A stretch of 10,977 bases of DNA, from the IMG/VR virus record IMGVR_UViG_2648501338_000003; one strand, given 5' to 3'. The position numbers were made by a program, and so were the translations under genes. Shown here piece after piece: positions 1 to 10,977 of this stretch. This stretch comes from a virus (taxonomy: Duplodnaviria; Heunggongvirae; Uroviricota; Caudoviricetes). Below the pieces are notes generated by a model, which was given only the letters and a program-made list of their open reading frames with translations, was not told where the DNA came from and searched no databases. Position 1 is the first letter of the stretch. Each line of letters opens with the position of its first letter.

Positions 1-48
1 CATGTAGATGATAATTATTATCATTTTCGTGGGTCCTTTCCGGCGATC
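1..48. other. cosQ: cos upstream segment, expected to contain cosQ (packaging termination element)
   Basis: Sequence 1-60 (catgtagatgataat...ccggcgatccgacaggttacg) closely matches the right end of the lambda genome as I recall it (ends ...CCGACAGGTTACG), immediately before the cohesive end. Exact cosQ boundaries cannot be set from sequence alone. Confidence 0.5.
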
Positions 49-84
49 CGACAGGTTACGGGGCGGCGACCTCGCGGGTTTTCG
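49..84. other. cosN: cosN nicking site; 12-nt cohesive end GGGCGGCGACCT at 61-72
   Basis: Positions 61-105 (gggcggcgacctcgcgggttttcgctatttatgaaaattttccgg) are identical to the first 45 nt of the lambda left end as I recall it; the lambda 12-nt 5-prime overhang is GGGCGGCGACCT. Top-strand nick expected between 60 and 61, bottom-strand nick between 72 and 73. Confidence 0.8.
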
Positions 85-109
85 CTATTTATGAAAATTT
101 TCCGGGATC

Positions 110-120
110 CATGTCCGGTT
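110..120 (-). repeat. R-like repeat copy 1 (catgtccggtt, reverse complement of aaccggacatg)
   Basis: Exact 11-bp match in inverted orientation to the copies at 168-178 and 198-208. Confidence 0.6.
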
Positions 121-167
121 TCTCTTCAAGTTAACTATATGAAAAATATAAAAACAGGTCTTCTGTG

Positions 168-178
168 AACCGGACATG
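168..178 (+). repeat. R-like repeat copy 2 (aaccggacatg)
   Basis: Exact 11-bp direct repeat; the identity extends to 12 bp (aaccggacatga, 167-178 region). Confidence 0.6.
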
Positions 179-197
179 AACAAAAAACAGACATGTA

Positions 198-208
198 AAC
201 CGGACATG
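198..208 (+). repeat. R-like repeat copy 3 (aaccggacatg), overlapping a one-mismatch inverted copy catgaccggtt at 205-215
   Basis: Exact 11-bp direct repeat 30 bp downstream of copy 2. The overlapping inverted near-copy at 205-215 makes a composite site. Confidence 0.6.
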
Positions 209-255
209 ACCGGTTTTGTTGTGATTGTGAGGTGAGAGTTTTTGCGAGGTGAGGA

Positions 256-765
256 GTGGCTACGCAGACTGAAGTTGCCAGGCATTTAAGTCTGACCGAT
301 CGCCAGCTTCGCAGATTGCAGAAATTGCCGGGTGCCCCGATATCGAATAAGCGAGGGCAACTGGATCTGGATGCCTGGCGCGATTTTTACATATCGTATC
401 TGAGGAGAAGTAAAAACGATGTGCCTGATGGCGATAGCGAAGACGACTATGAGGAGAAATTGCTTATTGCCAGATGGGAACTGACAGCAGAACAGGCTGT
501 TACACAGCAGTTAAAAAATGAGGTGTCAAAAGGAAAACTTATTGACACCGGGTTCTGTATTTTTGCCCTCAGTAAGCTGGCAATGGCGTTATCCAGTACG
601 CTTGATTCCATCCCTTTATCCATGCAGCGACAGTTTCCTGATTTAACACCGCGCCATCTTGACCATCTGAAAACCCTTATTGCTAAGGGGGCAAATCAGT
701 GTGCGCGGGCAGGGGATAAATTACCGGATTTACTCGATGAATATATCAGAGCAACAACTGAATAA
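256..765 (+). CDS. nu1: terminase small subunit (Nu1-like), GTG start
   Basis: 169-aa ORF. The C-terminal half (TGFCIFALSKLAMALSSTLDSIPLSMQRQFPDLTPRHLDHLK) aligns with lambda Nu1 (TAFCTFVLSRIAGEIASILDGLPLSVQRRFPELENRHVDFLK). The N-terminus has a helix-turn-helix-like segment (TEVARHLSLTDRQLRRL). GTG at 256 is preceded by GAGGT at 246-250; an in-frame stop at 250-252 rules out a longer N-terminus. Overlaps the start of A by 29 nt, as in lambda. Confidence 0.85.
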   Translation: MATQTEVARHLSLTDRQLRRLQKLPGAPISNKRGQLDLDAWRDFYISYLRRSKNDVPDGDSEDDYEEKLLIARWELTAEQAVTQQLKNEVSKGKLIDTGFCIFALSKLAMALSSTLDSIPLSMQRQFPDLTPRHLDHLKTLIAKGANQCARAGDKLPDLLDEYIRATTE

Positions 766-2665
766 TATGATGGCTGCCGTTTCGGTTGCGCTGCAGCCTC
801 TGGTCAGGGTTGTACCAATGACGGCAGTTGAATGGGCTGATCAAAATTATTATCTGCCTAAAGAATCCTCATACGGTGAGGGCGAATGGAAAACGCTGCC
901 ATTCCAGATCGCCATTATGAACTGTATGGGTAACGACCAGGTTCGCACGGTTAACCTGATTAAATCTGCCCGTGTTGGCTATACAAAGATGTTGCTGGGG
1001 GTGGTCGGGTATTTTATTGAGCATAAATCCCGAAACAGTCTGCTTTTTCAGCCCACGGATTCTGCCGCTGAAGATTTTATGAAGTCTCACGTGGAGGCGA
1101 CGATTCGGAACGTGCCATGCCTGAAAGACCTTTCCCCATGGCTGGGTCGTAAACATCGTGACAATACTCTCACGCTGAAACGCTTTTCATCGGGCGTCGG
1201 TTTCTGGTGCCTGGGCGGCGCAGCCGCCAAAAACTACCGTGAAAAATCCGTGGACGTGGTCTGCTATGACGAACTTTCCTCGTTCGAGCCGGATGTCGAA
1301 AAAGAGGGCTCGCCAACCCTGCTGGGGGATAAGCGTATTGAGGGCTCGGTATGGCCAAAATCCATTCGCGGCTCGACGCCTAAAATCAAAGGCACCTGCC
1401 AGATCGAAAAAGCCGCCAACGAGTCGGCGCATTTCATGCGTTTCTATGTGCCCTGCCCGCACTGTGGGGAGGCGCAGTATCTGAAATTTGGCGATGAATC
1501 CACGCCTTTTGGCCTTAAATGGGAGAAGGACAGCCCCGAAAGCGTTTTCTACCTCTGTGAACATCATGGCTGCGTGATCCATCAGTCTGAACTGGACCAG
1601 AGCAACGGGCGCTGGATCTGTGAAAACACGGGCATGTGGACCCGTGACGGCCTGACGTTTTTCAGCGCCCGGGGGGATGAAATTCCGCCGCCGCGCTCCA
1701 TCACGTTCCATATCTGGACGGCGTACAGTCCGTTCACCACCTGGATACAGATAGTCTATGACTGGCTGGATGCACTGAAAGATCCCAACGGCCTGAAAAC
1801 CTTTGTGAACACCACGCTGGGCGAGACCTGGGAAGAAGCCGTGGGCGAAAAACTCGATCACCAGGTACTGATGGATAAGGTGGTGCATTACACGGCGGCG
1901 GTACCTGCCCGGGTGGTTTATCTGACGGCGGGCATTGACTCGCAGCGAAACCGTTTTGAGATGTATGTCTGGGGATGGGCACCGGGAGAGGAAGCTTTTC
2001 TGGTGGATAAAATCATCATTATGGGCCGTCCCGATGAGGAAGAGACGCTGTTACGTGTGGATGCGGCGATCAACAAAAAATACTGCCATGCAGACGGAAC
2101 CGAAATGACCATTTCCCGTGTCTGCTGGGACACCGGGGGGATCGATGGTGAAATTGTCTATCAGAGGTCAAAAAAACACGGTGTTTTCCGGGTGCTGCCG
2201 GTAAAAGGCGCATCTGTCTATGGCAAGCCGGTGATCACCATGCCGAAAACCCGCAATCAGCGGGGCGTGTATCTGTGTGAAGTGGGGACGGACACCGCAA
2301 AAGAAATTCTCTATGCCCGTATGAAAGCCGATCCCACTCCTGCGGATGAAGCCACGTCGTATGCCATCCGTTTTCCTGATGATCCGGAGATTTTTTCGCA
2401 GACAGAGGCGCAGCAACTGGTCGCGGAAGAGCTTGTGGAGAAGTGGGAAAAAGGAAAGATGCGTCTGCTGTGGGATAACAAAAAGCGGCGTAACGAAGCG
2501 CTGGACTGCCTGGTGTATGCCTACGCGGCATTACGTGTGTCCGTGCAACGCTGGCAGCTTGATCTGGCTGTACTGGCAAAATCCCGGGAAGAAGAGACGA
2601 CCCGGCCAACCCTGAAAGAACTGGCAGCGAAGCTGTCCGGAGGAGTGAATGGTTACAGTCGCTGA
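737..2665 (+). CDS. A: terminase large subunit (gpA-like; ATPase/nuclease)
   Basis: Starting from MNISEQQLNN, the protein aligns along its full length with lambda gpA (e.g. TAVEWADQNYYLPKESSYGEGEWKTLPFQ, KSARVGYTKMLLGV, CWDTGGIDGEIVYQRSKKHG, KKRRNEALDCLVYAYAALR). The ATG at 737 is chosen by homology to the lambda start MNISNSQ; the ORF track begins upstream at 680. Confidence 0.93.
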   Translation: MNISEQQLNNMMAAVSVALQPLVRVVPMTAVEWADQNYYLPKESSYGEGEWKTLPFQIAIMNCMGNDQVRTVNLIKSARVGYTKMLLGVVGYFIEHKSRNSLLFQPTDSAAEDFMKSHVEATIRNVPCLKDLSPWLGRKHRDNTLTLKRFSSGVGFWCLGGAAAKNYREKSVDVVCYDELSSFEPDVEKEGSPTLLGDKRIEGSVWPKSIRGSTPKIKGTCQIEKAANESAHFMRFYVPCPHCGEAQYLKFGDESTPFGLKWEKDSPESVFYLCEHHGCVIHQSELDQSNGRWICENTGMWTRDGLTFFSARGDEIPPPRSITFHIWTAYSPFTTWIQIVYDWLDALKDPNGLKTFVNTTLGETWEEAVGEKLDHQVLMDKVVHYTAAVPARVVYLTAGIDSQRNRFEMYVWGWAPGEEAFLVDKIIIMGRPDEEETLLRVDAAINKKYCHADGTEMTISRVCWDTGGIDGEIVYQRSKKHGVFRVLPVKGASVYGKPVITMPKTRNQRGVYLCEVGTDTAKEILYARMKADPTPADEATSYAIRFPDDPEIFSQTEAQQLVAEELVEKWEKGKMRLLWDNKKRRNEALDCLVYAYAALRVSVQRWQLDLAVLAKSREEETTRPTLKELAAKLSGGVNGYSR

Positions 2666-2855
2666 ACTACAGGCGCTACGTCAGGCGCGCCTTGATTTAT
2701 TAACCGGTAAACGGGTGGTGTCTGTCCAGAAAGATGGTCGCAGAATTGAATATACGGCGGCTTCTCTGGATGAGCTTAACCGGGCGATCAATGATGCGGA
2801 GTCGGTACTGGGGACAACCCGACGTCGCCGTCGTCCGCTGGGAGTGAGGTTATGA
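2649..2855 (+). CDS. W: head-tail joining protein W
   Basis: 68 aa, the same length as lambda gpW, and similar (LLTGKRVVSVQKDGRRIEYTAASL vs lambda [24 protein letters not shown]). GGAGG at 2639-2643 precedes the ATG at 2649. Overlaps the end of A by 17 nt. Confidence 0.88.
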   Translation: MVTVAELQALRQARLDLLTGKRVVSVQKDGRRIEYTAASLDELNRAINDAESVLGTTRRRRRPLGVRL

Positions 2856-4444
2856 AACGAACGCCTGTCCTGATTGATGTGAACGGCGTTCCGCTTCGTG
2901 AGAGTCTCAGCTACAACGGGGGCGGCGCAGGATTTGGCGGGCAAATGGCGGAGTGGTTGCCACCGGCGCAGAGTGCCGATGCAGCCCTGCTGCCTGCGTT
3001 GCGTCTGGGGAATGCCCGGGCAGATGATCTGGTGCGCAATAACGGGATAGCGGCCAATGCGGTGGCACTGCATAAGGATCATATTGTCGGGCATATGTTT
3101 CTGATCAGCTACCGTCCGAACTGGCGCTGGCTGGGGATGCGGGAGACTGCGGCAAAAAGTTTTGTCGATGAGGTGGAGGCGGCCTGGTCGGAATACGCCG
3201 AAGGGATGTCTGGCGAGATCGACGTGGAAGAGAAACGCACGTTTACGGAATTTATTCGTGAAGGTGTGGGCGTTCATGCGTTTAACGGCGAAATCTTTGT
3301 GCAGCCGGTCTGGGATACGGAGAGCACGCAACTGTTTCGTACGCGTTTTAAAGCCGTGAGTCCGAAACGGGTGGACACGCCAGGACACGGTATGGGGAAC
3401 CGTTTTCTGCGGGCCGGTGTGGAGGTCGATCGATATGGTCGTGCCGTTGCGTACCATATCTGTGAGGATGATTTTCCGTTCTCTGGGAGTGGACGATGGG
3501 AACGGATCCCGCGTGAACTTCCCACCGGGCGTCCGGCCATGCTGCATATTTTCGAGCCGGTGGAGGACGGGCAGACCCGTGGGGCCAATCAGTTTTACAG
3601 CGTAATGGAACGGCTGAAGATGCTCGATTCCCTGCAGGCAACACAGCTTCAGTCGGCCATAGTGAAGGCGATGTATGCAGCGACGATTGAAAGTGACCTT
3701 GATACCGAAAAGGCCTTTGAATATATCGCCGGTGCGCCGCAGGGGCAGAAGGATAATCCGCTTATTAATATTCTGGATAAGTTCTCCACCTGGTATGACA
3801 CGAATAGCGTGACGCTGGGCGGTGTCAAAATTCCGCACCTTTTCCCCGGTGATGATCTGAAACTTCAGACCGCGCAGGATTCAGACAATGGATTTTCGGC
3901 GCTTGAACAGGCGCTGCTGCGGTATATCGCCGCCGGTCTTGGCGTTTCCTACGAACAGTTGTCCCGTGATTACTCGAAGGTCAGTTATTCAAGTGCCCGC
4001 GCATCCGCCAATGAGTCGTGGCGCTATTTTATGGGGCGGCGAAAATTTATTGCGTCCCGGCTGGCCACGCAGATGTTTTCCTGCTGGCTGGAAGAGGCAC
4101 TTCTTCGGGGGATTATTCGTCCGCCACGGGCACGTTTTGATTTTTATCAGGCGCGATCAGCCTGGTCACGGGCTGAGTGGATTGGAGCCGGAAGAATGGC
4201 CATTGACGGGCTCAAGGAGGTTCAGGAATCAGTGATGCGCATTGAGGCCGGACTGAGCACGTATGAGAAAGAGCTGGCGCTGATGGGCGAGGATTATCAG
4301 GACATTTTCCGCCAGCAGGTCAGGGAATCTGCAGAGCGGGAAAAAGCCGGACTCTCACGTCCGGTGTGGATAGCGCAGGCGTATCAGCAGCAGATAGCGG
4401 AGAGTCGCAGGCCGGAAGAGGAGACAACACCACGTGAGACGTAA
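2852..4444 (+). CDS. B: portal protein (gpB-like)
   Basis: 530 aa with strong full-length similarity to lambda gpB (GNARADDLVRNNG, FEPVEDGQTRGANQFYSVME, LQTAQDSDNGFS, LLRYIAAGLGVSYEQLSR, GRMAIDGLKEVQE). Its ATG overlaps the W stop in an ATGA arrangement. Confidence 0.93.
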   Translation: MKRTPVLIDVNGVPLRESLSYNGGGAGFGGQMAEWLPPAQSADAALLPALRLGNARADDLVRNNGIAANAVALHKDHIVGHMFLISYRPNWRWLGMRETAAKSFVDEVEAAWSEYAEGMSGEIDVEEKRTFTEFIREGVGVHAFNGEIFVQPVWDTESTQLFRTRFKAVSPKRVDTPGHGMGNRFLRAGVEVDRYGRAVAYHICEDDFPFSGSGRWERIPRELPTGRPAMLHIFEPVEDGQTRGANQFYSVMERLKMLDSLQATQLQSAIVKAMYAATIESDLDTEKAFEYIAGAPQGQKDNPLINILDKFSTWYDTNSVTLGGVKIPHLFPGDDLKLQTAQDSDNGFSALEQALLRYIAAGLGVSYEQLSRDYSKVSYSSARASANESWRYFMGRRKFIASRLATQMFSCWLEEALLRGIIRPPRARFDFYQARSAWSRAEWIGAGRMAIDGLKEVQESVMRIEAGLSTYEKELALMGEDYQDIFRQQVRESAEREKAGLSRPVWIAQAYQQQIAESRRPEEETTPRET

Positions 4445-5939
4445 TCTTTCACACATTATTGCCGCAGCATTCAATGAACCGCTGCTTCTGGAGCCCGCCT
4501 ATGCGCGGGTTTTCTTTTGCGCGCTCGGGCGCGAGATGGGGGCAGCAAGTCTTTCGGTACCACAACAGCAGGTACAGCTTGATGCTCCCGGAATGCTGGC
4601 TGAAACGGACGAGTACATGGCCGGAGGTAAACGACCGGCCCGTGTTTACCGGGTGGTGAACGGTATTGCGGTACTGCCGGTGACCGGCACGCTGGTGCAC
4701 CGGCTGGGGGGGATGCGGCCATTTTCCGGAATGACAGGCTATGACGGCATTGTCGCCTGTCTTCAGCAGGCAATGGCAGATAGCCAGGTGCGGGGCATAC
4801 TGCTGGACATTGACAGTCCGGGCGGGCAGGCCGCCGGCGCGTTTGACTGCGCTGACATGATTTACCGCCTCCGTCAGCAGAAGCCGGTCTGGGCACTGTG
4901 CAATGACACGGCCTGTTCTGCAGCCATGCTGCTGGCGTCGGCCTGCTCCCGACGGCTGGTTACCCAGACATCCCGTATCGGCTCCATTGGCGTGATGATG
5001 AGCCATGTCAGCTATGCCGGTCATCTGGCGCAGGCCGGTGTGGATATCACGCTGATTTACTCAGGGGCGCACAAGGTGGATGGCAATCAGTTTGAAGCCT
5101 TACCGGCAGAGGTTCGCCAGGACATGCAGCAGCGCATTGATGCGGCGCGCCGGATGTTTGCCGAAAAAGTGGCGATGTTTACCGGTCTGTCTGTTGATGC
5201 CGTCACGGGAACAGAGGCCGCCGTTTTTGAAGGTCAGTCCGGCATTGAGGCCGGGCTGGCGGATGAATTAGTCAATGCGTCGGATGCCATCAGTGTGATG
5301 GCCACGGCGCTGAACAGTAATGTCAGAGGAGGCACTATGCCGCAATTAACTGCAACGGAAGCCGCCGCGCAGGAGAACCAGCGAGTGATGGGGATCCTGA
5401 CATGCCAGGAAGCGAAAGGACGTGAACAGCTTGCCACGATGCTGGCAGGACAACAGGGCATGAGCGTTGAACAGGCCCGGGCGATTCTGGCCGCGGCGGC
5501 ACCGCAGCAGCCGGTGGCATCCACGCAGAGTGAAGCCGATCGCATTATGGCGTGTGAAGAAGCGAACGGTCGTGAACAACTGGCGGCAACGCTGGCGGCG
5601 ATGCCGGAGATGACGGTGGAAAAAGCCCGCCCGATCCTGGCTGCTTCACCGCAGGCGGATGCCGGACCCTCACTCCGTGATCAGATCATGGCACTGGATG
5701 AGGCAAAAGGGGCTGAGGCGCAGGCTGAACAGCTGGCTGCCTGCCCGGGAATGACTGTGGAGAGCGCCCGGGCTGTGCTGGCTGCGGGATCAGGTAAGGC
5801 AGAACCGGTCTCTGCATCCACAACCGCCCTGTTTGAACGCATCATGGCGAACCATTCACCGGCAGCGGTACAGGGTGGCGTGCCACAGACGTCAGCAGAC
5901 GGTGATGCGGACGTGAAAATGCTCATGGCCATGCCATGA
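4434..5939 (+). CDS. C: head maturation protease / scaffold protein (gpC-like, S49/ClpP-type serine protease domain), with an extended repeat-containing C-terminal region
   Basis: 501 aa. The N-terminal 300 aa align with lambda gpC (AFNEPLLLEPAYARVFFCAL, GIAVLPVTGTLV, MTGYDGI, AGAFDCAD, KPVWALCNDTACSAA, SRRLVTQTSRIGSIGVMM, ITLIYSGAHKVDGN, GLSVDAV, TEAAVFEGQ, AGLADELVN). Proposed GTG start at 4434 follows AGAGGAG at 4417-4423; the exact start is uncertain. Overlaps the portal stop by 11 nt. Confidence 0.88.
   Translation: MRRNLSHIIAAAFNEPLLLEPAYARVFFCALGREMGAASLSVPQQQVQLDAPGMLAETDEYMAGGKRPARVYRVVNGIAVLPVTGTLVHRLGGMRPFSGMTGYDGIVACLQQAMADSQVRGILLDIDSPGGQAAGAFDCADMIYRLRQQKPVWALCNDTACSAAMLLASACSRRLVTQTSRIGSIGVMMSHVSYAGHLAQAGVDITLIYSGAHKVDGNQFEALPAEVRQDMQQRIDAARRMFAEKVAMFTGLSVDAVTGTEAAVFEGQSGIEAGLADELVNASDAISVMATALNSNVRGGTMPQLTATEAAAQENQRVMGILTCQEAKGREQLATMLAGQQGMSVEQARAILAAAAPQQPVASTQSEADRIMACEEANGREQLAATLAAMPEMTVEKARPILAASPQADAGPSLRDQIMALDEAKGAEAQAEQLAACPGMTVESARAVLAAGSGKAEPVSASTTALFERIMANHSPAAVQGGVPQTSADGDADVKMLMAMP
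5337..5939 (+). CDS. nu3: candidate nested in-frame scaffold protein (Nu3-like), produced by internal initiation within C
   Basis: In lambda, Nu3 is translated from an internal in-frame start in the 3-prime part of C. Here an in-frame ATG at 5337 is preceded by a strong Shine-Dalgarno sequence AGAGGAGG (5325-5332) and would give about 200 aa containing the scaffold repeats. The start is inferred, not proven. Confidence 0.4.
   Translation: MPQLTATEAAAQENQRVMGILTCQEAKGREQLATMLAGQQGMSVEQARAILAAAAPQQPVASTQSEADRIMACEEANGREQLAATLAAMPEMTVEKARPILAASPQADAGPSLRDQIMALDEAKGAEAQAEQLAACPGMTVESARAVLAAGSGKAEPVSASTTALFERIMANHSPAAVQGGVPQTSADGDADVKMLMAMP
5385..5840 (+). repeat. three diverged tandem copies of a roughly 47-53 aa scaffold motif (IMxxxEAxGREQLAxxLAxxPGMTVExARxILAA) within C/Nu3
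   Basis: Protein-level repeats begin at nt 5385 (VMGILTCQEAKGREQLATMLAGQQGMSVEQARAILAAA), 5544 (IMACEEANGREQLAATLAAMPEMTVEKARPILAAS) and 5685 (IMALDEAKGAEAQAEQLAACPGMTVESARAVLAAG), followed by a vestigial fourth IMA at about 5838. The copies are diverged at the DNA level. Confidence 0.75.
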
Positions 5940-5975
5940 AGTCAGTGCTGACCATCAACAGGAGGTTTTTACAAT

Positions 5976-6323
5976 ATGGTAACGAAAACCATCACTGAAC
6001 AGCGTGCGGAAGTACGTATTTTTGCCGGTAATGATCCGGCTCATACCGCCACAGGCAGCAGCGGGATTTCCTCGGCAACACCGGCACTGACGCCCCTGAT
6101 GCTGGATGAAGCCACCGGGAAACTGGTGGTCTGGGACGGACAGAAAGCCGGTAGTGCAGTTGGCATACTGGTACTGCCGCTTGAAGGCACAGAGACGGTA
6201 CTGACCTATTACAAGTCGGGGACCTTTGCGACGGAGGCAATCCGCTGGCCTGAAAGTGTGGATGAACACAAAAAGGCAAATGCCTTTGCCGGCAGTGCCC
6301 TGAGTCACGCGGCGCTGCCGTAA
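5976..6323 (+). CDS. D: head decoration protein (gpD-like)
   Basis: 115 aa, similar to lambda gpD (DPAHTATGSSG, PLMLDEATGKLVVWDG, AVGIL, YYKSGTF, AFAGSA). AGGAGG at 5960-5965 precedes the ATG at 5976. Confidence 0.92.
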   Translation: MVTKTITEQRAEVRIFAGNDPAHTATGSSGISSATPALTPLMLDEATGKLVVWDGQKAGSAVGILVLPLEGTETVLTYYKSGTFATEAIRWPESVDEHKKANAFAGSALSHAALP

Positions 6324-6330
6324 CACGTTA

Positions 6331-6352
6331 TCAGGCCACCGCGGTGGCCTGA
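6331..6352 (+). other. perfect 22-bp palindrome tcaggccaccgcggtggcctga in the D-E intergenic region (stable GC-rich RNA hairpin or dimeric protein site)
   Basis: The sequence equals its own reverse complement. It starts 8 nt after the D stop and ends 29 nt before the E start. No strong T-tract follows it. Confidence 0.7.
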
Positions 6353-6380
6353 CTGATTTCTGAATGAAAGGAACTGATTT

Positions 6381-7409
6381 ATGGGATTGTTTACGACCCG
6401 CCAGTTACTCGGTTATACCGAACAAAAAGTGAAATTTCGTGCGCTGTTTCTGGAGCTGTTTTTCCGCCGTACGGTGAATTTCCATACCGAAGAGGTGATG
6501 CTGGACAAAATTACCGGAAAAACGCCGGTGGCGGCCTATGTCTCCCCGGTTGTTGAAGGAAAAGTGCTGCGTCATCGCGGTGGTGAAACCCGCGTGTTAC
6601 GTCCGGGCTACGTCAAGCCGAAACACGAATTTAATTACCAGCAGGCGGTTGAGCGCCTTCCTGGTGAAGATCCGGCTCAACTGAACGATCCGGCTTACCG
6701 CCGTCTGCGTATCATTACCGATAACCTCAAACAGGAAGAGCACGCGATTGTCCAGGTGGAAGAAATACAGGCGGTAAATGCTGTGTTGTATGGCAAATAT
6801 ACGATGGAAGGAGACCAGTTCGAGAAAATTGAGGTCGATTTTGGCAGGTCGACGAAGAATAACATCACTCAGGGTAGTGGTAAGGAGTGGTCAAAACAGG
6901 ATCGTGACACGTTCGATCCTACACATGATCTTGACCTCTACTGCGACCAGGCCAGCGGTCTTGTGAATATTGCCATTATGGACGGTACCGTCTGGCGTCT
7001 TCTGAATGGTTTTAAGCTGTTCCGCGAAAAACTGGATACCCGTCGCGGTTCAAATTCTCAACTCGAAACGGCAGTGAAAGATCTGGGCGCAGTGGTGTCC
7101 TTCAAGGGGTATTACGGCGATCTGGCCATTGTGGTGGCGAAAACGTCTTATATAGCAGAAGACGGTATCGAAAAACGTTATCTGCCGGAGGGCATGCTGG
7201 TTCTGGGGAATACTGCTGCAGATGGGATCCGTTGTTACGGTGCCATTCAGGATGCGCAGGCGTTGTCCGAAGGTGTGGTGGCCTCTTCCCGTTATCCGAA
7301 ACACTGGCTGACGGTGGGGGATCCCGCCCGTGAATTTACCATGACGCAGTCCGCGCCGCTGATGGTGTTGCCGGACCCGGATGAGTTTGTGGTGGTACAG
7401 GTGAAATAA
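6381..7409 (+). CDS. E: major capsid protein (gpE-like)
   Basis: 342 aa (lambda gpE is 341 aa) with full-length similarity (PGYVKPKHE, DPAYRRLRII, VEEIQAVNAVLYGKYTM, KLDTRRGSNSQLETAVKDLG, YGDLAIVV, MVLGNT, TGDPAREFTMTQSAPLMVLPDPDEFV). AAGGA lies upstream of the ATG. Confidence 0.95.
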   Translation: MGLFTTRQLLGYTEQKVKFRALFLELFFRRTVNFHTEEVMLDKITGKTPVAAYVSPVVEGKVLRHRGGETRVLRPGYVKPKHEFNYQQAVERLPGEDPAQLNDPAYRRLRIITDNLKQEEHAIVQVEEIQAVNAVLYGKYTMEGDQFEKIEVDFGRSTKNNITQGSGKEWSKQDRDTFDPTHDLDLYCDQASGLVNIAIMDGTVWRLLNGFKLFREKLDTRRGSNSQLETAVKDLGAVVSFKGYYGDLAIVVAKTSYIAEDGIEKRYLPEGMLVLGNTAADGIRCYGAIQDAQALSEGVVASSRYPKHWLTVGDPAREFTMTQSAPLMVLPDPDEFVVVQVK

Positions 7410-7417
7410 TCCGTGAG

Positions 7418-7446
7418 CGGGGGCGAAATGCCCCCGTGTCTTTTTT
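7418..7446 (+). terminator. terminator-like hairpin: 7-bp GC stem (cgggggc / gcccccg, loop gaaat) followed by tgtc and a run of six T (7441-7446)
   Basis: Seen directly in the sequence, 9 nt after the E stop. The T-run is separated from the stem by 4 nt, so it is an imperfect intrinsic terminator. An alternative hairpin overlaps it (see findings). Confidence 0.45.
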
Positions 7447-7460
7447 CACAGGGGGCTGAT

Positions 7461-7835
7461 ATGGCAACGAAAGAGCAAAATCTGAAACGGCTTGATGAAC
7501 TGGCCCTGATTCTGGGGCGTGAGCCGGATATATCCGGGAGTGCCGCAGAGATAGCGCAGCGGGTGGCGGAATGGGAAGAGGAAATACAGTCATCCGGCGA
7601 GGATGTTCAGGTTGGGGATACGGTGATCCGGGAGCGGGAAACCGCGGCTCATGATGTTCGTGAGGATACATCCGGTGCGTTAACGCGCATCAGAGTTCTG
7701 ACCTGCCTCCATCTCTGTGGCATTGATGGTGAAACAGGGGAATCCGTTGAGATTGCGGATGTTGGTCGGGTGATTCTGATTATGTCCTCAGATGCAAAAA
7801 CACACGTTGATGGCGGAATGGCTGTTTATGCGTGA
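7461..7835 (+). CDS. FI: DNA-packaging / head-assembly protein FI-like
   Basis: Sits between E and FII where lambda has FI, with similar size (125 aa from the ATG at 7461) and an acidic central region; sequence similarity to lambda FI is weak. The ORF track starts at GTG 7413, but that lies inside the hairpin, so the ATG at 7461 (MATKEQNLKRL) is preferred. Confidence 0.65.
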   Translation: MATKEQNLKRLDELALILGREPDISGSAAEIAQRVAEWEEEIQSSGEDVQVGDTVIRERETAAHDVREDTSGALTRIRVLTCLHLCGIDGETGESVEIADVGRVILIMSSDAKTHVDGGMAVYA

Positions 7836-8181
7836 TTTTCAGAATGCCTTTGATGCTGCCCTTGCCGGGGTGGACAGTACGATTGTTGAAGTGATGGGGC
7901 TCTGTGCACAGTTCACCTCGGGGGCACAGTGTGGCAGAGAAGTTCAGGGGGTTTTTGACGATCCGGAGTCGCTGGGATTTGCCGGTAGCGGGGTCCGTAT
8001 TGAAGGAAGCAGCCCGTCATTATTTGTACGGACGGATACGGTTCGTGCTGTGCGGCGTGGTGACACGCTGACCATTAATGGTGAGACATTCTGGGTGGAT
8101 CGTGTTTCTCCGGATGACGGGGGCAGCTGTTATCTCTGGCTCAACCGTGGGCAACCACCCGCAGTTAACCGGCGACGATAA
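7828..8181 (+). CDS. FII: head-tail connector protein FII
   Basis: Strong similarity to lambda gpFII (FDAALAG, GVFDDPES, GSGVRIEGSSPSLFVRTD, RRGDTLTI, FWVDRVSPDDGGSCYLWL, RGQPPAVNRRR). Start at ATG 7828 (MRDFQNAFDAA) is chosen by alignment to the lambda N-terminus MADFDNLFDAA; it overlaps the FI stop. Confidence 0.9.
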   Translation: MRDFQNAFDAALAGVDSTIVEVMGLCAQFTSGAQCGREVQGVFDDPESLGFAGSGVRIEGSSPSLFVRTDTVRAVRRGDTLTINGETFWVDRVSPDDGGSCYLWLNRGQPPAVNRRR

Positions 8182-8196
8182 ACGCAGGGTGAAATT

Positions 8197-8730
8197 ATGG
8201 CGATAAAAGGGCTTGAGCAGGCGATTGACAATCTGAGCCGGGTTCGTAAAAACGCCATTCCGGCGGCTTCAGCAATGACCATTAACCGCGTGGCCACAAC
8301 GGCGATTAATCAGTCTTCATCACAGGTTGCCCGGGAAACAAAGGTGAGACGGAAACTGGTTAAGGAACGGTCCAGACTGAAACGGGCCACGGTCAGAAAT
8401 CCGAATGCCAGAATTATCGTTAACCGCGGTGATCTCCCGGTGATTAAGCTGGGGATCAGGATGCCGGGGCGTCGCCCGGACAGCATACTCAAAGCCGGTC
8501 AGCATCGGTATCAGCGGGCATTTATTCAGCGATTAAAAAATGGTCGCTGGCATGTCATGCAGCGTGTGGCCGGGAAAAACCGTTACCCCATTGATGTGGT
8601 GAAAATCCCGATGGCGGCCCCACTGAAACAGGCGTTTGATGAGAATGTTGACCGTATCCGGCGTGAACGACTGCCCAAAGAACTGGCATACGCGCTGAAA
8701 CAACAACTGAGGATTGCAATAAAACGATGA
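8197..8730 (+). CDS. Z: tail completion protein Z
   Basis: 177 aa, similar to lambda gpZ (KGLEQAI, QVARETKVRRKLVKERSRLKRATV, RGDLPVIKLG, FIQRLKNGRWHVMQRVAGKNRYPIDVVKIPMA, RIRRERLPKEL). Confidence 0.92.
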   Translation: MAIKGLEQAIDNLSRVRKNAIPAASAMTINRVATTAINQSSSQVARETKVRRKLVKERSRLKRATVRNPNARIIVNRGDLPVIKLGIRMPGRRPDSILKAGQHRYQRAFIQRLKNGRWHVMQRVAGKNRYPIDVVKIPMAAPLKQAFDENVDRIRRERLPKELAYALKQQLRIAIKR

Positions 8731-9122
8731 AACACACTGACATCCGTGCCGCAGTGCTGGATGCACTCGAGCAGCATGAACACGGGGCGACGCTGTTTGA
8801 TGGTCGCCCCGTTGTTTTTGACGAAGAGGATTTTCCCGCGATCGCGGTTTATCTGACGGATGCAGAGTATACCGGTGAAGAGCTGGATGCAGATACCTGG
8901 CGGGCCACACTGCATATTGAGGTGTTTTTACCAGCACAGGTACCGGATTCAGAGCTGGATCAGTGGATGGAAAGCCGGATTTACCCGGCGATGACCGCGA
9001 TCCCGGCACTGGCAGAACTGATTACCACGATGGTTACGCAGGGCTATGAGTATCGTCGTGATGACGATATGGCGTTATGGAGTTCTGCAGATCTGACTTA
9101 TTCCATTACATACGAGATGTGA
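8727..9122 (+). CDS. U: tail terminator protein U
   Basis: 131 aa (same as lambda gpU) and near-collinear with it ([80 protein letters not shown]). ATGA overlap with the Z stop. Confidence 0.95.
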
Positions 9123-9129
9123 GGACGAT

Positions 9130-9882
9130 ATGGCAACACCAAATCCCCTTGAGCCGGTAAAAGGTGCCGGTACCACCCTGTGGGCTTACAACGGCAAGGG
9201 TGACGCCTATGCAAACCCGTTGTCAGACGATGACTGGCAGCGACTGGCTAAGGTGAAGGATCTGACGCCGGGCGAGATGACGGCAGAACCCTACGATGAT
9301 AACTACCTGGATGATGAAGACGCGGACTGGACCGCGACCGGGCAGGGGCAGAAATCTGCAGGAGATACCAGTTTTACGCTGGCCTGGAAACCGGGAGAAG
9401 AAGGCCAGAAAGGGCTTATAGGCTGGTTTGAAAGCGGGGATGTGCGGGCCTATAAAATCCGTTTTCCGAACGGCACGGTGGATGTGTTTCGTGGCTGGGT
9501 CAGCAGTATCGGTAAGGCCGTGACGGCGAAAGAAGTGATCACCCGCACGGTGAAAGTCACCAACGTGGGCAAACCTTCTGTAGCGGAAGAACGCAGCAAA
9601 ATTACGCCGGTCACTGCGATTAAGGTGACGCCGACATCCGGTACGGTGGCAAAAGGGAAAACAACCACCCTGACGGTTTCTTTTGAGCCGGAAAGTGCAA
9701 CAGACAAGACGTTCAGAGCGGTTTCCGCCGATCCGTCGAAAGCCACCATTAGTGTGAAAGATATGACAATTACGGTAAACGGCGTGGCGACAGGTAAGGT
9801 GCAGATCCCTGTGGTGAGCGGAAATGGTCAGTTCGCCGCAGTGGCTGAAGTCACCGTTACTGAAGCGGGCGCTGCAGGGTAA
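9130..9882 (+). CDS. V: major tail protein V with C-terminal Ig-like (Big_2-type) domain
   Basis: 250 aa, with strong similarity to lambda gpV ([131 protein letters not shown]). Confidence 0.95.
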
Positions 9883-9895
9883 ACGGAGGTAATAC

Positions 9896-10328
9896 ATGTT
9901 TCTGAAAACAGAACAATTTGAATATAACGGTGTGTCCGTCACGCTTTCCGAATTGTCTGCGCTGCAGCGTATCGAGCATCTTGCCCTCCTGAAACGGCGT
10001 GCAGAACAGGCAGAATCCAGCGGCAACCTGCAGGTAAGCGTGGAAGATCTCGTCAGAACCGGCGCGTTTCTGGTGGCGATGTCCCTGTGGCATAACCATC
10101 CACAGAAAACGGCAGTCACCGTCAATGAATGAGGCCGTGATGAAGATAGAACAGGAAGTGCTCACCACCTGGCCTGCCGATGCCATTGCCCGGGCGGAAG
10201 ACGTGGTGTTGCGCCTGTCCGGGATGAGCGAAGCTGTTCATCCGGATACTGACAGCACCGAAGTGGCGAAAAATAACACGCTGACTGATGATGATTTTTC
10301 TGCGGGAAAGTCTTCGACGGCGAGCTGA
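9896..10328 (+). pseudogene. G: tail assembly chaperone G, interrupted by a +1 frame break near 10110-10125 (fragments 9896-10132 and 10125-10328)
   Basis: ORF 9896-10132 (MFLKTEQFEYNGVSVTLSELSALQRIEHLALLKR...WHNHPQKT) matches the N-terminal part of lambda gpG. ORF 10125-10328 (MNEAVMKIEQEVLTTWPADAIARAEDVVLRLSGM...AGKSSTAS) matches the C-terminal part but is in a different frame. The homologous reading resumes one nucleotide out of frame, consistent with a single extra base near 10112. Confidence 0.6.
10304..10310 (+). other. -1 programmed ribosomal frameshift slippery heptamer G GGA AAG (G to G-T fusion)
   Basis: GGGAAAG at 10304-10310 is positioned as G|GGA|AAG in the G reading frame, 6 codons before the G stop. 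The -1 frame is open from here to 10813. This is the same heptamer and position as the lambda G-T frameshift. Confidence 0.8.
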
Positions 10329-10813
10329 ACTTTACCCTCAGACTGGCGCGTGAGATGGGGAGACCCGACTGGCGCGCCATGCTTGCCGGGATGACATCCA
10401 CCGAATATGCCGACTGGCGCGCCATGCTTGCCGGGATGACATCCACCGAATATGCCGACTGGCGACATTTTTACCGCACGCATTATTTTCACGATACCCA
10501 ACTGGATATGCATTTTTCCGGGCTGACGTACGCCGTACTCAGCCTGTTTTTTTGCGATCCGGATATGCATCCCTCTGATTTCAGTCTGCTTGCCCCCCGG
10601 CATGAGGAAGAGCAGACGGAGAGGCCGGATGAGGAAAAAATGCTGATGCAGAAAGCGGCAGGACTTGCCGGAGGCGTCCGGTTCGGTGGGGACGGAGGGC
10701 GCGATATTTTATCGTCTGCGGATGTGGCGGATGTCATGGTGGATGATGCCGCATTAATGATGGCTTCAGCGGGGATTCCGGGAGGTGTGAGATATGTCCC
10801 AGCCGGTTGGTGA
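10304..10813 (+). CDS. T: T segment of the G-T tail assembly fusion protein (no independent start; reached by -1 frameshift from G)
   Basis: The -1 frame from the slippery site reads GKVFDGELNFTLRLAREMGRPDWRAMLAGM...HYFHD...LDMHFSGLTY...LSLFF.DPDMHP.DFSLL...LMQKAAGLAGGVRFG...GGVRY, matching lambda gpT as I recall it. It ends at TGA 10811-10813, overlapping the H start. Confidence 0.75.
   Translation, partial: GKVFDGELNFTLRLAREMGRPDWRAMLAGMTSTEYADWRAMLAGMTSTEYADWRHFYRTHYFHDTQLDMHFSGLTYAVLSLFFCDPDMHPSDFSLLAPRHEEEQTERPDEEKMLMQKAAGLAGGVRFGGDGGRDILSSADVADVMVDDAALMMASAGIPGGVRYVPAGW
10367..10456 (+). repeat. perfect 45-bp tandem duplication (2 x gactggcgcgccatgcttgccgggatgacatccaccgaatatgcc), encoding DWRAMLAGMTSTEYA twice in the T frame
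   Basis: Copies at 10367-10411 and 10412-10456 are 100 percent identical. Each copy and the downstream flank (10457-10464) begin with the same 8-bp gactggcg. The duplication is in frame (15 aa) in the T reading frame. Confidence 0.9.
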
Positions 10814-10977
10814 TCTTGTTATTGACCTGAGTCTGGATGCGGTCCGTTTCGATGAGCAGATGAGCCGGGTAAGGCGTCATTTTTCAGGTCTGGATACCGA
10901 CGTCAGAAAAACCGCCAGTGCTGTTGAACAGGGCCTGAGCCGCCAGGCGCTGGCTGCACAAAAAGCCGGGATTTCCG
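10794..10977 (+). CDS. H: tail tape-measure protein H, N-terminal fragment (continues beyond the window)
   Basis: The ATG at 10794 is preceded by GGAGGTG at 10781-10787. The translation MSQPVGDLVIDLSLDAVRFDEQMSRVRRHFSG...LSRQALAAQKAGIS matches the lambda gpH N-terminus (MAEPVGDLVVDLSLDAARFDEQMARVRRHFSG). It is absent from the ORF track because it runs off the window end. Confidence 0.88.
   Translation, partial: MSQPVGDLVIDLSLDAVRFDEQMSRVRRHFSGLDTDVRKTASAVEQGLSRQALAAQKAGIS

What the first reader, a model, noticed from the sequence alone, without database searches (positions are those of the whole stretch)
10095..10135. Tail assembly chaperone gene G is split by a +1 frame break
The N-terminal 78 aa (9896-10132) and C-terminal 67 aa (10125-10328) both match lambda gpG but lie in different frames. 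Frame A reads ...HNHPQKT AVTVNE stop; frame B reads ...RQSPSMNEAVMKIEQEV. The stretch between the conserved QKT and SMNEAV is 13 nt, which is not a multiple of three and so cannot join the two frames; this fits a single extra base (possibly the G at about 10112 in acgGcag). G and G-T are essential for tail assembly in lambda, and every other structural gene in the window is intact. So this is either (a) a sequencing or assembly error, (b) a recent inactivating mutation in an otherwise intact prophage, or (c) a split gene rescued by reinitiation: the frame-B ATG at 10125 sits 5 nt upstream of the frame-A stop (ATGAATGA), which could permit termination-reinitiation. The slippery site for G-T lies in the downstream fragment, so G-T synthesis would also depend on this.
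Basis: partly seen in the sequence, partly recalled or inferred. Interest (0 to 1): 0.55.

Follow-up and report, generated by a model that had tools for sequence, protein, structure and literature searches.

The report
Assembly artefact splits prophage gene G
The frame break in the phage tail-chaperone gene is in the sequence as described, but it is almost certainly a by-product of merging two slightly different prophage copies into one draft contig, so it is ordinary.

Summary
Gene G is read as a 78-aa piece (9896-10132) and a 67-aa piece (10125-10328) in frames one base apart, because the window reads ACG-GCAG-TCA where intact relatives have three bases.

The break is most likely not a mutation. 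The window is a whole draft contig (JHSS01000063.1). At sites where it differs from relatives it nearly always has the alphabetically first base:
- 79/82 against O145 RM9872
- 48/48 against C325
- 40/40 against Z1323HEC0422
- 76/77 against a sister contig

Comparisons between complete genomes show no such bias. No mutational process sorts bases alphabetically, so the contig is a computed merge of two or more co-resident prophage copies.

The complete genome Z1323HEC0422 carries two such prophages, both with an intact 143-aa G. One has GCA (Ala) at codon 73 and the other has CAG (Gln). Aligned at minimal edit distance (ACGGCA-TCA / ACG-CAGTCA), with a base kept wherever either copy has one, they give exactly GCAG.

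The same GCAG occurs on the opposite flanking haplotype in a sister assembly. It occurs in none of about 5,500 G copies in complete E. coli genomes, and in no IMG/VR or metagenome contig.

Verdict: assembly or consensus artefact, confidence about 0.9, low interest.

The parts
1..10977 (+). Whole draft contig (JHSS01000063.1), running from cos and Nu1 to the start of the tape-measure gene H. It is a merged consensus of two or more prophage copies, with polymorphic sites resolved to the alphabetically first base.
   Evidence: One search identifies the contig. sign tests: 79/82, 76/77, 48/48 and 40/40, with controls not significant; 106 of 110 sites equal min(prophage A, prophage B) of Z1323HEC0422, p=9e-27.
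9896..10132 (+). N-terminal piece of tail assembly chaperone gene G (78 aa). The last 6 residues, AVTVNE, are out of frame.
   Evidence: PF06894 positions 1-74, E=1.7e-33.
10111..10115 (+). GGCAG. Codon 73 is written with four bases (GCAG), the union of the Ala allele GCA and the Gln allele CAG. One G (10111/10112 or 10115) is surplus.
   Evidence: the only two gap columns are 10111 (base present in prophage A only) and 10115 (base present in prophage B only); deleting either G gives a 143-aa ORF.
10125..10328 (+). C-terminal piece of G (67 aa from ATG 10125, or 62 aa from ATG 10140, which has GAGG at 10131-10134 upstream).
   Evidence: PF06894 positions 77-122, E=3.6e-11.
10304..10310 (+). 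Slippery heptamer G GGA AAG for the programmed -1 frameshift that makes G-T. It is intact.
   Evidence: Sequence. In one search a simulated -1 slip on the repaired gene gives a 305-aa G-T fusion.
10355..10813 (+). T reading frame, -1 relative to the C-terminal G piece and in the same frame as the N-terminal piece.
   Evidence: PF06223, E=1.3e-14.
10365..10464 (+). Perfect 45-nt tandem duplication inside T (2.2 copies, in frame). It is not part of the frame break, but it is a second place where the contig keeps bases that some relatives lack.
   Evidence: also present in the complete genome C325; absent from O145 RM9872 and from L005.

Best explanation
The frame break is an artefact of how the draft contig was built. 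The source strain carries at least two closely related lambdoid prophages. Their shared late-gene region was collapsed into one consensus sequence. Where the copies differ by a substitution, the written base is the alphabetically first of the two, either because an ambiguity code was later resolved or because of a tie-break rule. Where one copy has a base and the other a gap, the base was kept. At codon 73 of G one copy has GCA (Ala) and the other CAG (Gln). The minimal-edit alignment of these alleles is ACGGCA-TCA / ACG-CAGTCA, and keeping every base yields ACGGCAGTCA, one base too many. Both real genes are probably intact 143-aa G genes with a normal G-T frameshift site.

Shown by the analyses: the alphabetical allele choice, the union structure of GCAG, the existence of both alleles in co-resident prophages of a real genome, and the absence of GCAG elsewhere.

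Inferred: which software step did this, and that no read contains GCAG.
For: (1): at substitutions the window has the alphabetically smaller base in 79/82 sites against O145 RM9872 (p=4e-20), 76/77 against L005, 48/48 against C325 and 40/40 against Z1323HEC0422. Controls between complete genomes give 25/58, 23/39 and 55/95, all not significant.
(2): among 2,797 pairs of natural G haplotypes with at least 8 differences, only 1 reaches 95% one-directional bias. None of 229 natural Gln-allele G regions equals the window with one G removed.
(3): the complete genome Z1323HEC0422 holds two prophages with intact G genes, WP_000479105.1 (GCA) and WP_000479116.1 (CAG). Over window 7866-10977 the window equals the smaller of the two bases at 106 of 110 differing sites (p=9e-27) and never has a third base. 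Outside the 45-nt duplication the only gap columns are 10111 (base in A only) and 10115 (base in B only), and the window keeps both.
(4): a second contig, L005 (JHSQ01000099.1, neighbouring accession prefix), has the same GCAG on the opposite flanking haplotype (10102 G, 10136 T and so on). In 9891-10977 it has the larger base at 35/35 sites. L005 is displayed reverse-complemented, so this is the smaller base in its own record orientation, the same rule.
(5) GCAG is absent from 5,494 G-gene places in 5,426 complete E. coli genomes.
(6) The edit distance between the two alleles is 2 with gaps and 3 without.
(7) Assembler components that merge alternative paths into one consensus with IUPAC codes exist (PMC4515008).
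Against: No reads were available, so the absence of GCAG from real molecules is inferred, not seen. I could not identify the assembler or post-processing used for JHSS and JHSQ (searches found nothing). A few sites do not follow the rule: 30, 1996, 5732, 7878, 9465, 9468 and 9489. L005 does not follow it upstream of 9890 when measured against the Z1323HEC0422 pair (35 smaller, 40 larger), so its collapsed partners there must differ from that pair. If one copy really carried ACGGCAGTCA, the merged consensus would look the same.
Confidence: 0.9

Rival explanations
1. A real single-base insertion in one prophage copy makes G, and therefore G-T, a pseudogene. This would leave a tail-defective prophage, possibly complemented in trans by the G/G-T of a co-resident lambdoid prophage.
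For: The sequence as deposited has the extra base. Two assemblies show it. Genuine inactivations of late genes occur in such prophages, for example IS3 in the terminase gene of Z1323HEC0422 prophage A. A merged consensus would also retain a real insertion.
Against: A random insertion would have to produce exactly the string that the union of the two co-resident alleles gives. It sits on two different flanking haplotypes, with SNPs 10 nt upstream and 24 nt downstream. It is absent from all other G copies searched. The contig demonstrably does not represent a single molecule.
Confidence: 0.05
2. An ordinary base-calling or homopolymer error (G read as GG), unrelated to repeat collapse.
For: The context is a G to GG change after an A4 run. 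It is a draft assembly. Other draft assemblies contain broken G genes, for example P0002 from E. coli 3030-1.
Against: It is the only frameshifting indel in 11 kb. The identical change recurs in a second assembly on another haplotype. This model does not explain the alphabetical allele pattern or the exact GCA/CAG union.
Confidence: 0.03
3. A real split gene that remains functional. This would work either by termination-reinitiation (ATG 10125 overlapping TGA 10130-10132, or ATG 10140 behind GAGG 10131-10134), giving two G pieces. Or it would work by a +1 slip of tRNA-Lys on A-AAA-A (10106-10109), which would give a full-length 143-aa G with only T72R.
For: The start and stop codons overlap and there is an SD-like GAGG. 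The AAAA run allows re-pairing in the +1 frame, and the +1 reading rejoins the G frame one codon later. This is my inference and has not been tested.
Against: Both signals are ordinary internal sequence of every intact G gene, so they were not selected for this purpose. No related phage or prophage has the split arrangement. The break cuts one Pfam domain at positions 74/77. The contig is a chimera.
Confidence: 0.02

Closest known systems
Bacteriophage lambda tail assembly chaperones gpG and gpG-T (Pfam PF06894 plus PF06223, with a programmed -1 frameshift at G GGA AAG)
   Same: The underlying gene is a standard member. After removal of one G the full PF06894 domain is present (E=6e-52). The slippery heptamer is at 10304-10310 and T lies in the -1 frame. 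Gene order is V-G-T-H. RefSeq relatives are annotated gpG and T.
   Different: As written in the contig the gene is broken after codon 72. I attribute this difference to the assembly, not to the phage.
Collapsed-repeat or consensus-of-paths artefacts in short-read assemblies, and chimeric haploid consensus sequences
   Same: One sequence stands for two or more near-identical copies. The phase across variable sites is meaningless. Tools that merge multiple paths and write IUPAC codes are documented (PMC4515008). Chimeric consensus of heterozygous sites is a recognised problem (abstract of PMC8977997).
   Different: Here the variable sites are written as plain bases chosen alphabetically, and two offset single-base gaps were both filled, which creates a frameshift. 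I found no description of this exact signature, and I do not know which program produced it.
Frameshift pseudogenes of cryptic or defective lambdoid prophages
   Same: The appearance is the same: one indel in an otherwise intact late operon of an E. coli prophage.
   Different: The allele pattern of the contig and the union structure of GCAG indicate that no real molecule need carry the indel.
Programmed +1 frameshifting (prfB type) and termination-reinitiation coupling
   Same: There is an overlapping ATGAATGA, and an A-AAA-A run upstream of the break.
   Different: The split is not conserved in any relative. There is no dedicated stimulatory element. The sequences concerned are the normal internal codons of intact G genes.

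Membership tests
Lambda gpG / gpG-T tail assembly chaperone gene pair | Protein matches the Phage_TAC_2 domain (PF06894) | tested here: met
   the N piece covers profile positions 1-74 (E=1.7e-33) and the C piece covers 77-122 (E=3.6e-11). The repaired 143-aa protein covers 1-121 (E=6.4e-52).
Lambda gpG / gpG-T tail assembly chaperone gene pair | Slippery heptamer near the 3' end of G, with T (PF06223) in the -1 frame | tested here: met
   GGGAAAG lies at 10304-10310. The T ORF 10355-10813 matches PF06223. A simulated -1 slip gives a 305-aa fusion. Frameshifting itself was not measured.
Lambda gpG / gpG-T tail assembly chaperone gene pair | Position between the major tail gene V and the tape-measure gene H | tested here: met
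   gene table (V-like PF16461/PF02368, then G, T and H). Searches give the annotations of relatives.
Collapsed multi-copy consensus (assembly artefact) | Alleles at variable sites follow a rule with no biological meaning | tested here: met
   the smaller base in 79/82, 76/77, 48/48 and 40/40 sites. Controls between complete genomes are not significant. panel control: 1 of 2,797 pairs.
Collapsed multi-copy consensus (assembly artefact) | The sequence can be rebuilt from two real co-resident copies | tested here: met
   106 of 110 sites equal the smaller base of Z1323HEC0422 prophages A and B, with no third bases. Both gap columns at codon 73 are filled from the copy that has a base.
Collapsed multi-copy consensus (assembly artefact) | The region is multi-copy in genomes of this kind | tested here: met
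   a median of 1-2 and up to 7-8 places per genome; two copies in Z1323HEC0422. The copy number in the source strain itself could not be measured.
Collapsed multi-copy consensus (assembly artefact) | Reads split into two allele classes and none carries the consensus-only string | not testable with these tools
   No read data are accessible here. The exact-protein look-up, which also covers Logan assemblies of sequencing runs, found the 78-aa product only in the two NCBI draft contigs.
Genuine frameshift pseudogene | The indel is present on a real DNA molecule | not testable with these tools
   This needs reads or resequencing. The indirect evidence is against it.
Conserved split gene or recoding site (+1 frameshift or reinitiation) | The same split arrangement is kept in related functional phages or prophages | tested here: not met
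   None of 5,494 places in complete E. coli genomes has it. There were 0 hits in IMG/VR, GTDB representatives and metagenomes, against at least 120 hits each for the intact sequence in IMG/VR and metagenomes.

The most novel reading that the evidence does not exclude
One prophage copy in these strains really carries ACGGCAGTCA, and G/G-T is still made. This would be either two complementing halves by reinitiation at ATG 10125 or 10140, or a full-length protein (T72R) by a +1 slip of tRNA-Lys on A-AAA-A just upstream. The result would be a tail chaperone needing two opposite frameshifts (+1, then -1) to make G-T.
Probability: 0.03. Interest if true: 0.35.

Novelty: not a real feature. Interest (0 to 1): 0.06.

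Why it matters
For phage biology the finding has little weight. The G/G-T module here is a standard lambda-type one, and both underlying copies are probably intact. Its value is as a data-quality warning. This contig and its sister contig are not sequences of any one molecule. Their V, U, Z, G and T proteins are artificial mosaics, and the two G fragments have entered a 15-billion-protein collection as proteins seen nowhere else. A sign test on the alphabetical order of differing bases detects this kind of artefact cheaply. It could be applied before apparent pseudogenes or novel alleles in draft assemblies of poly-lysogenic strains are interpreted.

Tried and rejected
(1) Three full-text literature searches for the accession prefixes JHSS and JHSQ, their neighbours, and the GCA numbers found nothing relevant. 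The project, platform and assembler remain unknown.

I obtained the alleles from complete genomes instead.

(3) I suspected that the other small indel against O145 RM9872, near position 28 (TTTTCGTGGG against TTTTGCGGG), was a second union artefact. It is not. The window's first 130 bases occur at 100% identity in complete genomes.

(4) General homopolymer-error hypothesis: only three indel events separate the contig from its closest complete relative over 11 kb, and two of them are natural alleles. I rejected it as the main cause.

(5) Gene conversion spreading a real insertion between prophages: it would need a tract shorter than 34 nt, between the SNPs at 10102 and 10136. It would also leave the alphabetical pattern unexplained.

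(6) Searches used a wrong anchor for L005. Their L005 figures are invalid and are superseded.

(7) The sequence search of the PDB with the repaired G found no solved relative. I did not pursue a structural argument about whether two halves could complement each other, because the break appears not to be real.

Full report
**What is in the sequence**

The window is a complete draft contig, JHSS01000063.1 of assembly GCA_001266095.1. It carries the late genes of a lambda-like E. coli prophage, from cos and Nu1 to the start of the tape-measure gene.

Their translations are as quoted. They cover positions 1-74 and 77-122 of one Pfam domain, PF06894, the lambda tail assembly chaperone G.

Alignment with intact G genes from complete E. 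coli genomes shows a single surplus base: AAAACGGCAGTC in the window against AAAACGCAGTC. The G-T slippery heptamer GGGAAAG (10304-10310) and the T frame are intact. All other genes are called intact. The only correction is that the spacer between QKT and SMNEAV is 10 nt, against 9 in intact genes, not 13 nt.

**Is the extra base seen elsewhere?**

- An 81-nt query across the break matched 5,494 places in 5,426 complete E. coli genomes. None is identical, and the best differ by the one-base gap.
- The 30-mer containing the extra G is absent from IMG/VR, from one genome per GTDB species, and from the metagenome contigs.
- An exact-protein look-up found the 78-aa product on only one other contig, JHSQ01000099.1 (L005). 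That contig comes from an assembly with a neighbouring accession prefix.

**The clue from the second contig**

L005 differs from the window at 77 substitutions in 3.1 kb and lacks the 45-nt duplication in T. It nevertheless has the same four bases GCAG at the same place.

SNPs lie 10 nt upstream (10102) and 24 nt downstream (10136) of the break. The same insertion therefore sits on two haplotypes. A shared real mutation would need a conversion tract under 34 nt or an identical recurrent insertion in a non-repetitive context.

**Codon 73 is polymorphic**

Truncated and full-length G proteins in the protein collection read QKT-Q/A/G/E-SPSMNEAV. At the DNA level:

- C325 and one prophage of Z1323HEC0422 have ACG CAG TCA.
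- O145 RM9872 has ACG GCA TCA.
- GE3 and 88-3493 have ACG GCG TCA.

The window has CAG-type flanks and L005 has GCA-type flanks, but both read GCAG. GCAG is the union of the two alleles when they are aligned at minimal edit distance: ACGGCA-TCA over ACG-CAGTCA, two edits instead of three substitutions.

**The contig is not one molecule**

Tabulating variable sites showed that wherever the window differs from a relative, it has the alphabetically earlier base. Formal counts:

| Comparison | Sites where the window has the smaller base |
|---|---|
| Window vs O145 RM9872, whole window | 79 of 82 (p=4e-20) |
| Window vs L005 | 76 of 77 |
| Window vs C325 | 48 of 48 |
| Window vs Z1323HEC0422 | 40 of 40 |

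Controls between complete genomes give 25/58, 23/39 and 55/95, none significant. In a panel of 229 natural G regions (83 haplotypes), only 1 of 2,797 pairs with at least 8 differences reaches 95% bias. No natural sequence equals the window with one G removed; the nearest differs at 9 sites.

The preferences are A over G but C over T, and also A over C, C over G and G over T. They are not strand-symmetric and match no mutational process. They match alphabetical order.

L005 shows the mirror image: it has the larger base at 29 of 30 sites against Z1323HEC0422. L005 is displayed as the reverse complement of its record. In its own orientation it therefore follows the same first-letter rule.

**Reconstruction from a real genome**

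The closed genome Z1323HEC0422 carries two lambdoid prophages with this late region:

- Prophage A at 253 kb, with G = WP_000479105.1 and codon 73 GCA.
- Prophage B at 1.53 Mb, with G = WP_000479116.1 and codon 73 CAG.

Both G genes are intact at 143 aa. Over window 7866-10977 the two prophages differ at 110 aligned sites. The window has the smaller base at 106 of them (p=9e-27) and never has a third base.

Apart from the 45-nt duplication, the only gap columns are 10111 (base in A, gap in B) and 10115 (base in B, gap in A). The window and L005 keep both bases. In 9891-10977, L005 has the larger base at 35 of 35 sites.

The window is thus, almost base for base, the "alphabetical minimum with bases beating gaps" of two prophages like those that coexist in a real strain.

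**Mechanism, and which steps are shown or inferred**

Shown by the analyses:
- The contig's alleles follow a computational rule.
- GCAG is the union of two natural alleles.
- Both alleles coexist in real genomes.
- GCAG occurs nowhere else.

Inferred:
- The source strains carry two such prophages.
- The assembler, or a later step, merged them into one path.
- Substitutions were written as ambiguity codes that were later resolved to the first letter, or as ties broken in A, C, G, T order.
- Single-base gaps were filled.

Assembly tools that merge alternative paths into a consensus with IUPAC codes are documented (PMC4515008). From memory, ABySS's path consensus also keeps the base at indel columns, and CLC's vote rule breaks ties in A, C, G, T order. 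I could not verify either, and I could not find which software was used.

**Rivals**

- A real insertion in one copy would give the same consensus and cannot be excluded without reads. It would, however, require a random insertion to reproduce exactly the union string, on two haplotypes. I give it about 5%.
- A plain homopolymer error does not explain the recurrence or the allele pattern (about 3%).
- A functional split gene cannot be ruled out on sequence grounds alone. It could work by reinitiation at ATG 10125 or at ATG 10140 behind GAGG. It could also work by a +1 slip on A-AAA-A, which would restore a full-length protein with only T72R. These motifs are the normal internal codons of every intact G gene, and no relative keeps the split. 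I give it about 2%.

**Comparison with known systems**

The gene is an ordinary member of the lambda G/G-T chaperone family. The domain, the slippery site, T in the -1 frame and the V-G-T-H gene order were all tested and met.

The frame break belongs with collapsed-repeat consensus artefacts, not with pseudogenes or recoding sites. The defining test for a conserved split gene, presence in relatives, was run and not met.

**Verdict**

This is not a real biological feature, and interest is low (0.06).

The decisive check is a read pile-up across 10095-10140. It should show two clean allele classes and no read with ACGGCAGTCACC.

Noticed in passing
window 10365-10464: A perfect 45-nt tandem duplication (2.2 copies) lies inside T. 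It is in frame and repeats the 15 residues DWRAMLAGMTSTEYA. The complete genome C325 has the same duplication, so it is a natural allele. Most relatives and the sister contig L005 lack it.
   Followed up: partly
window 1-10977 (densest in 1219-1996 and 7936-10636): Because the contig is an alphabetical-minimum merge of two or more prophage copies, its Z, U, V, G and T protein sequences are artificial mosaics. The 78-aa and 62-aa G pieces exist in the 15-billion-protein collection only from these two draft assemblies.
   Followed up: yes
window 10112-10115 (codon 73 of G); L001, L003, L247, L248: Residue 73 of G, just after the conserved QKT, is hypervariable among E. coli prophages. Proteins show Q, A, G or E, and the DNA alleles seen are CAG, GCA and GCG. 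The reason for variability at this one position is unknown.
   Followed up: partly
L005 (JHSQ01000099.1), 2031-2463: The sister draft contig has the same GCAG break and the mirror-image allele bias: the larger base as displayed, which is the smaller base in its own orientation. Upstream of window position 9890, however, it does not fit the Z1323HEC0422 prophage pair (35 smaller, 40 larger). Different copies must have been merged there.
   Followed up: partly
P0002 (EGW77716.1, E. coli 3030-1), 94 aa: This is another broken G in a draft assembly. It reads normally to ...SPSMNEAVMQIE and then runs out of frame (LGSPDHLAC), a different break point from the window.
   Followed up: no
L249 1371-2670 (Z1323HEC0422 prophage A): An IS3-family element interrupts the large terminase gene of the prophage most similar to the window. 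The same element lies beside the second prophage. This is a genuine inactivation in a closed genome.
   Followed up: no
window 1-130: The contig starts about 60 nt left of the cohesive-end sequence GGGCGGCGACCT (61-72; identified as cosN from memory of the lambda sequence). The nearby difference from O145 RM9872 (TTTTCGTGGG against TTTTGCGGG, about positions 24-33) is a natural allele, found at 100% identity in complete genomes.
   Followed up: yes
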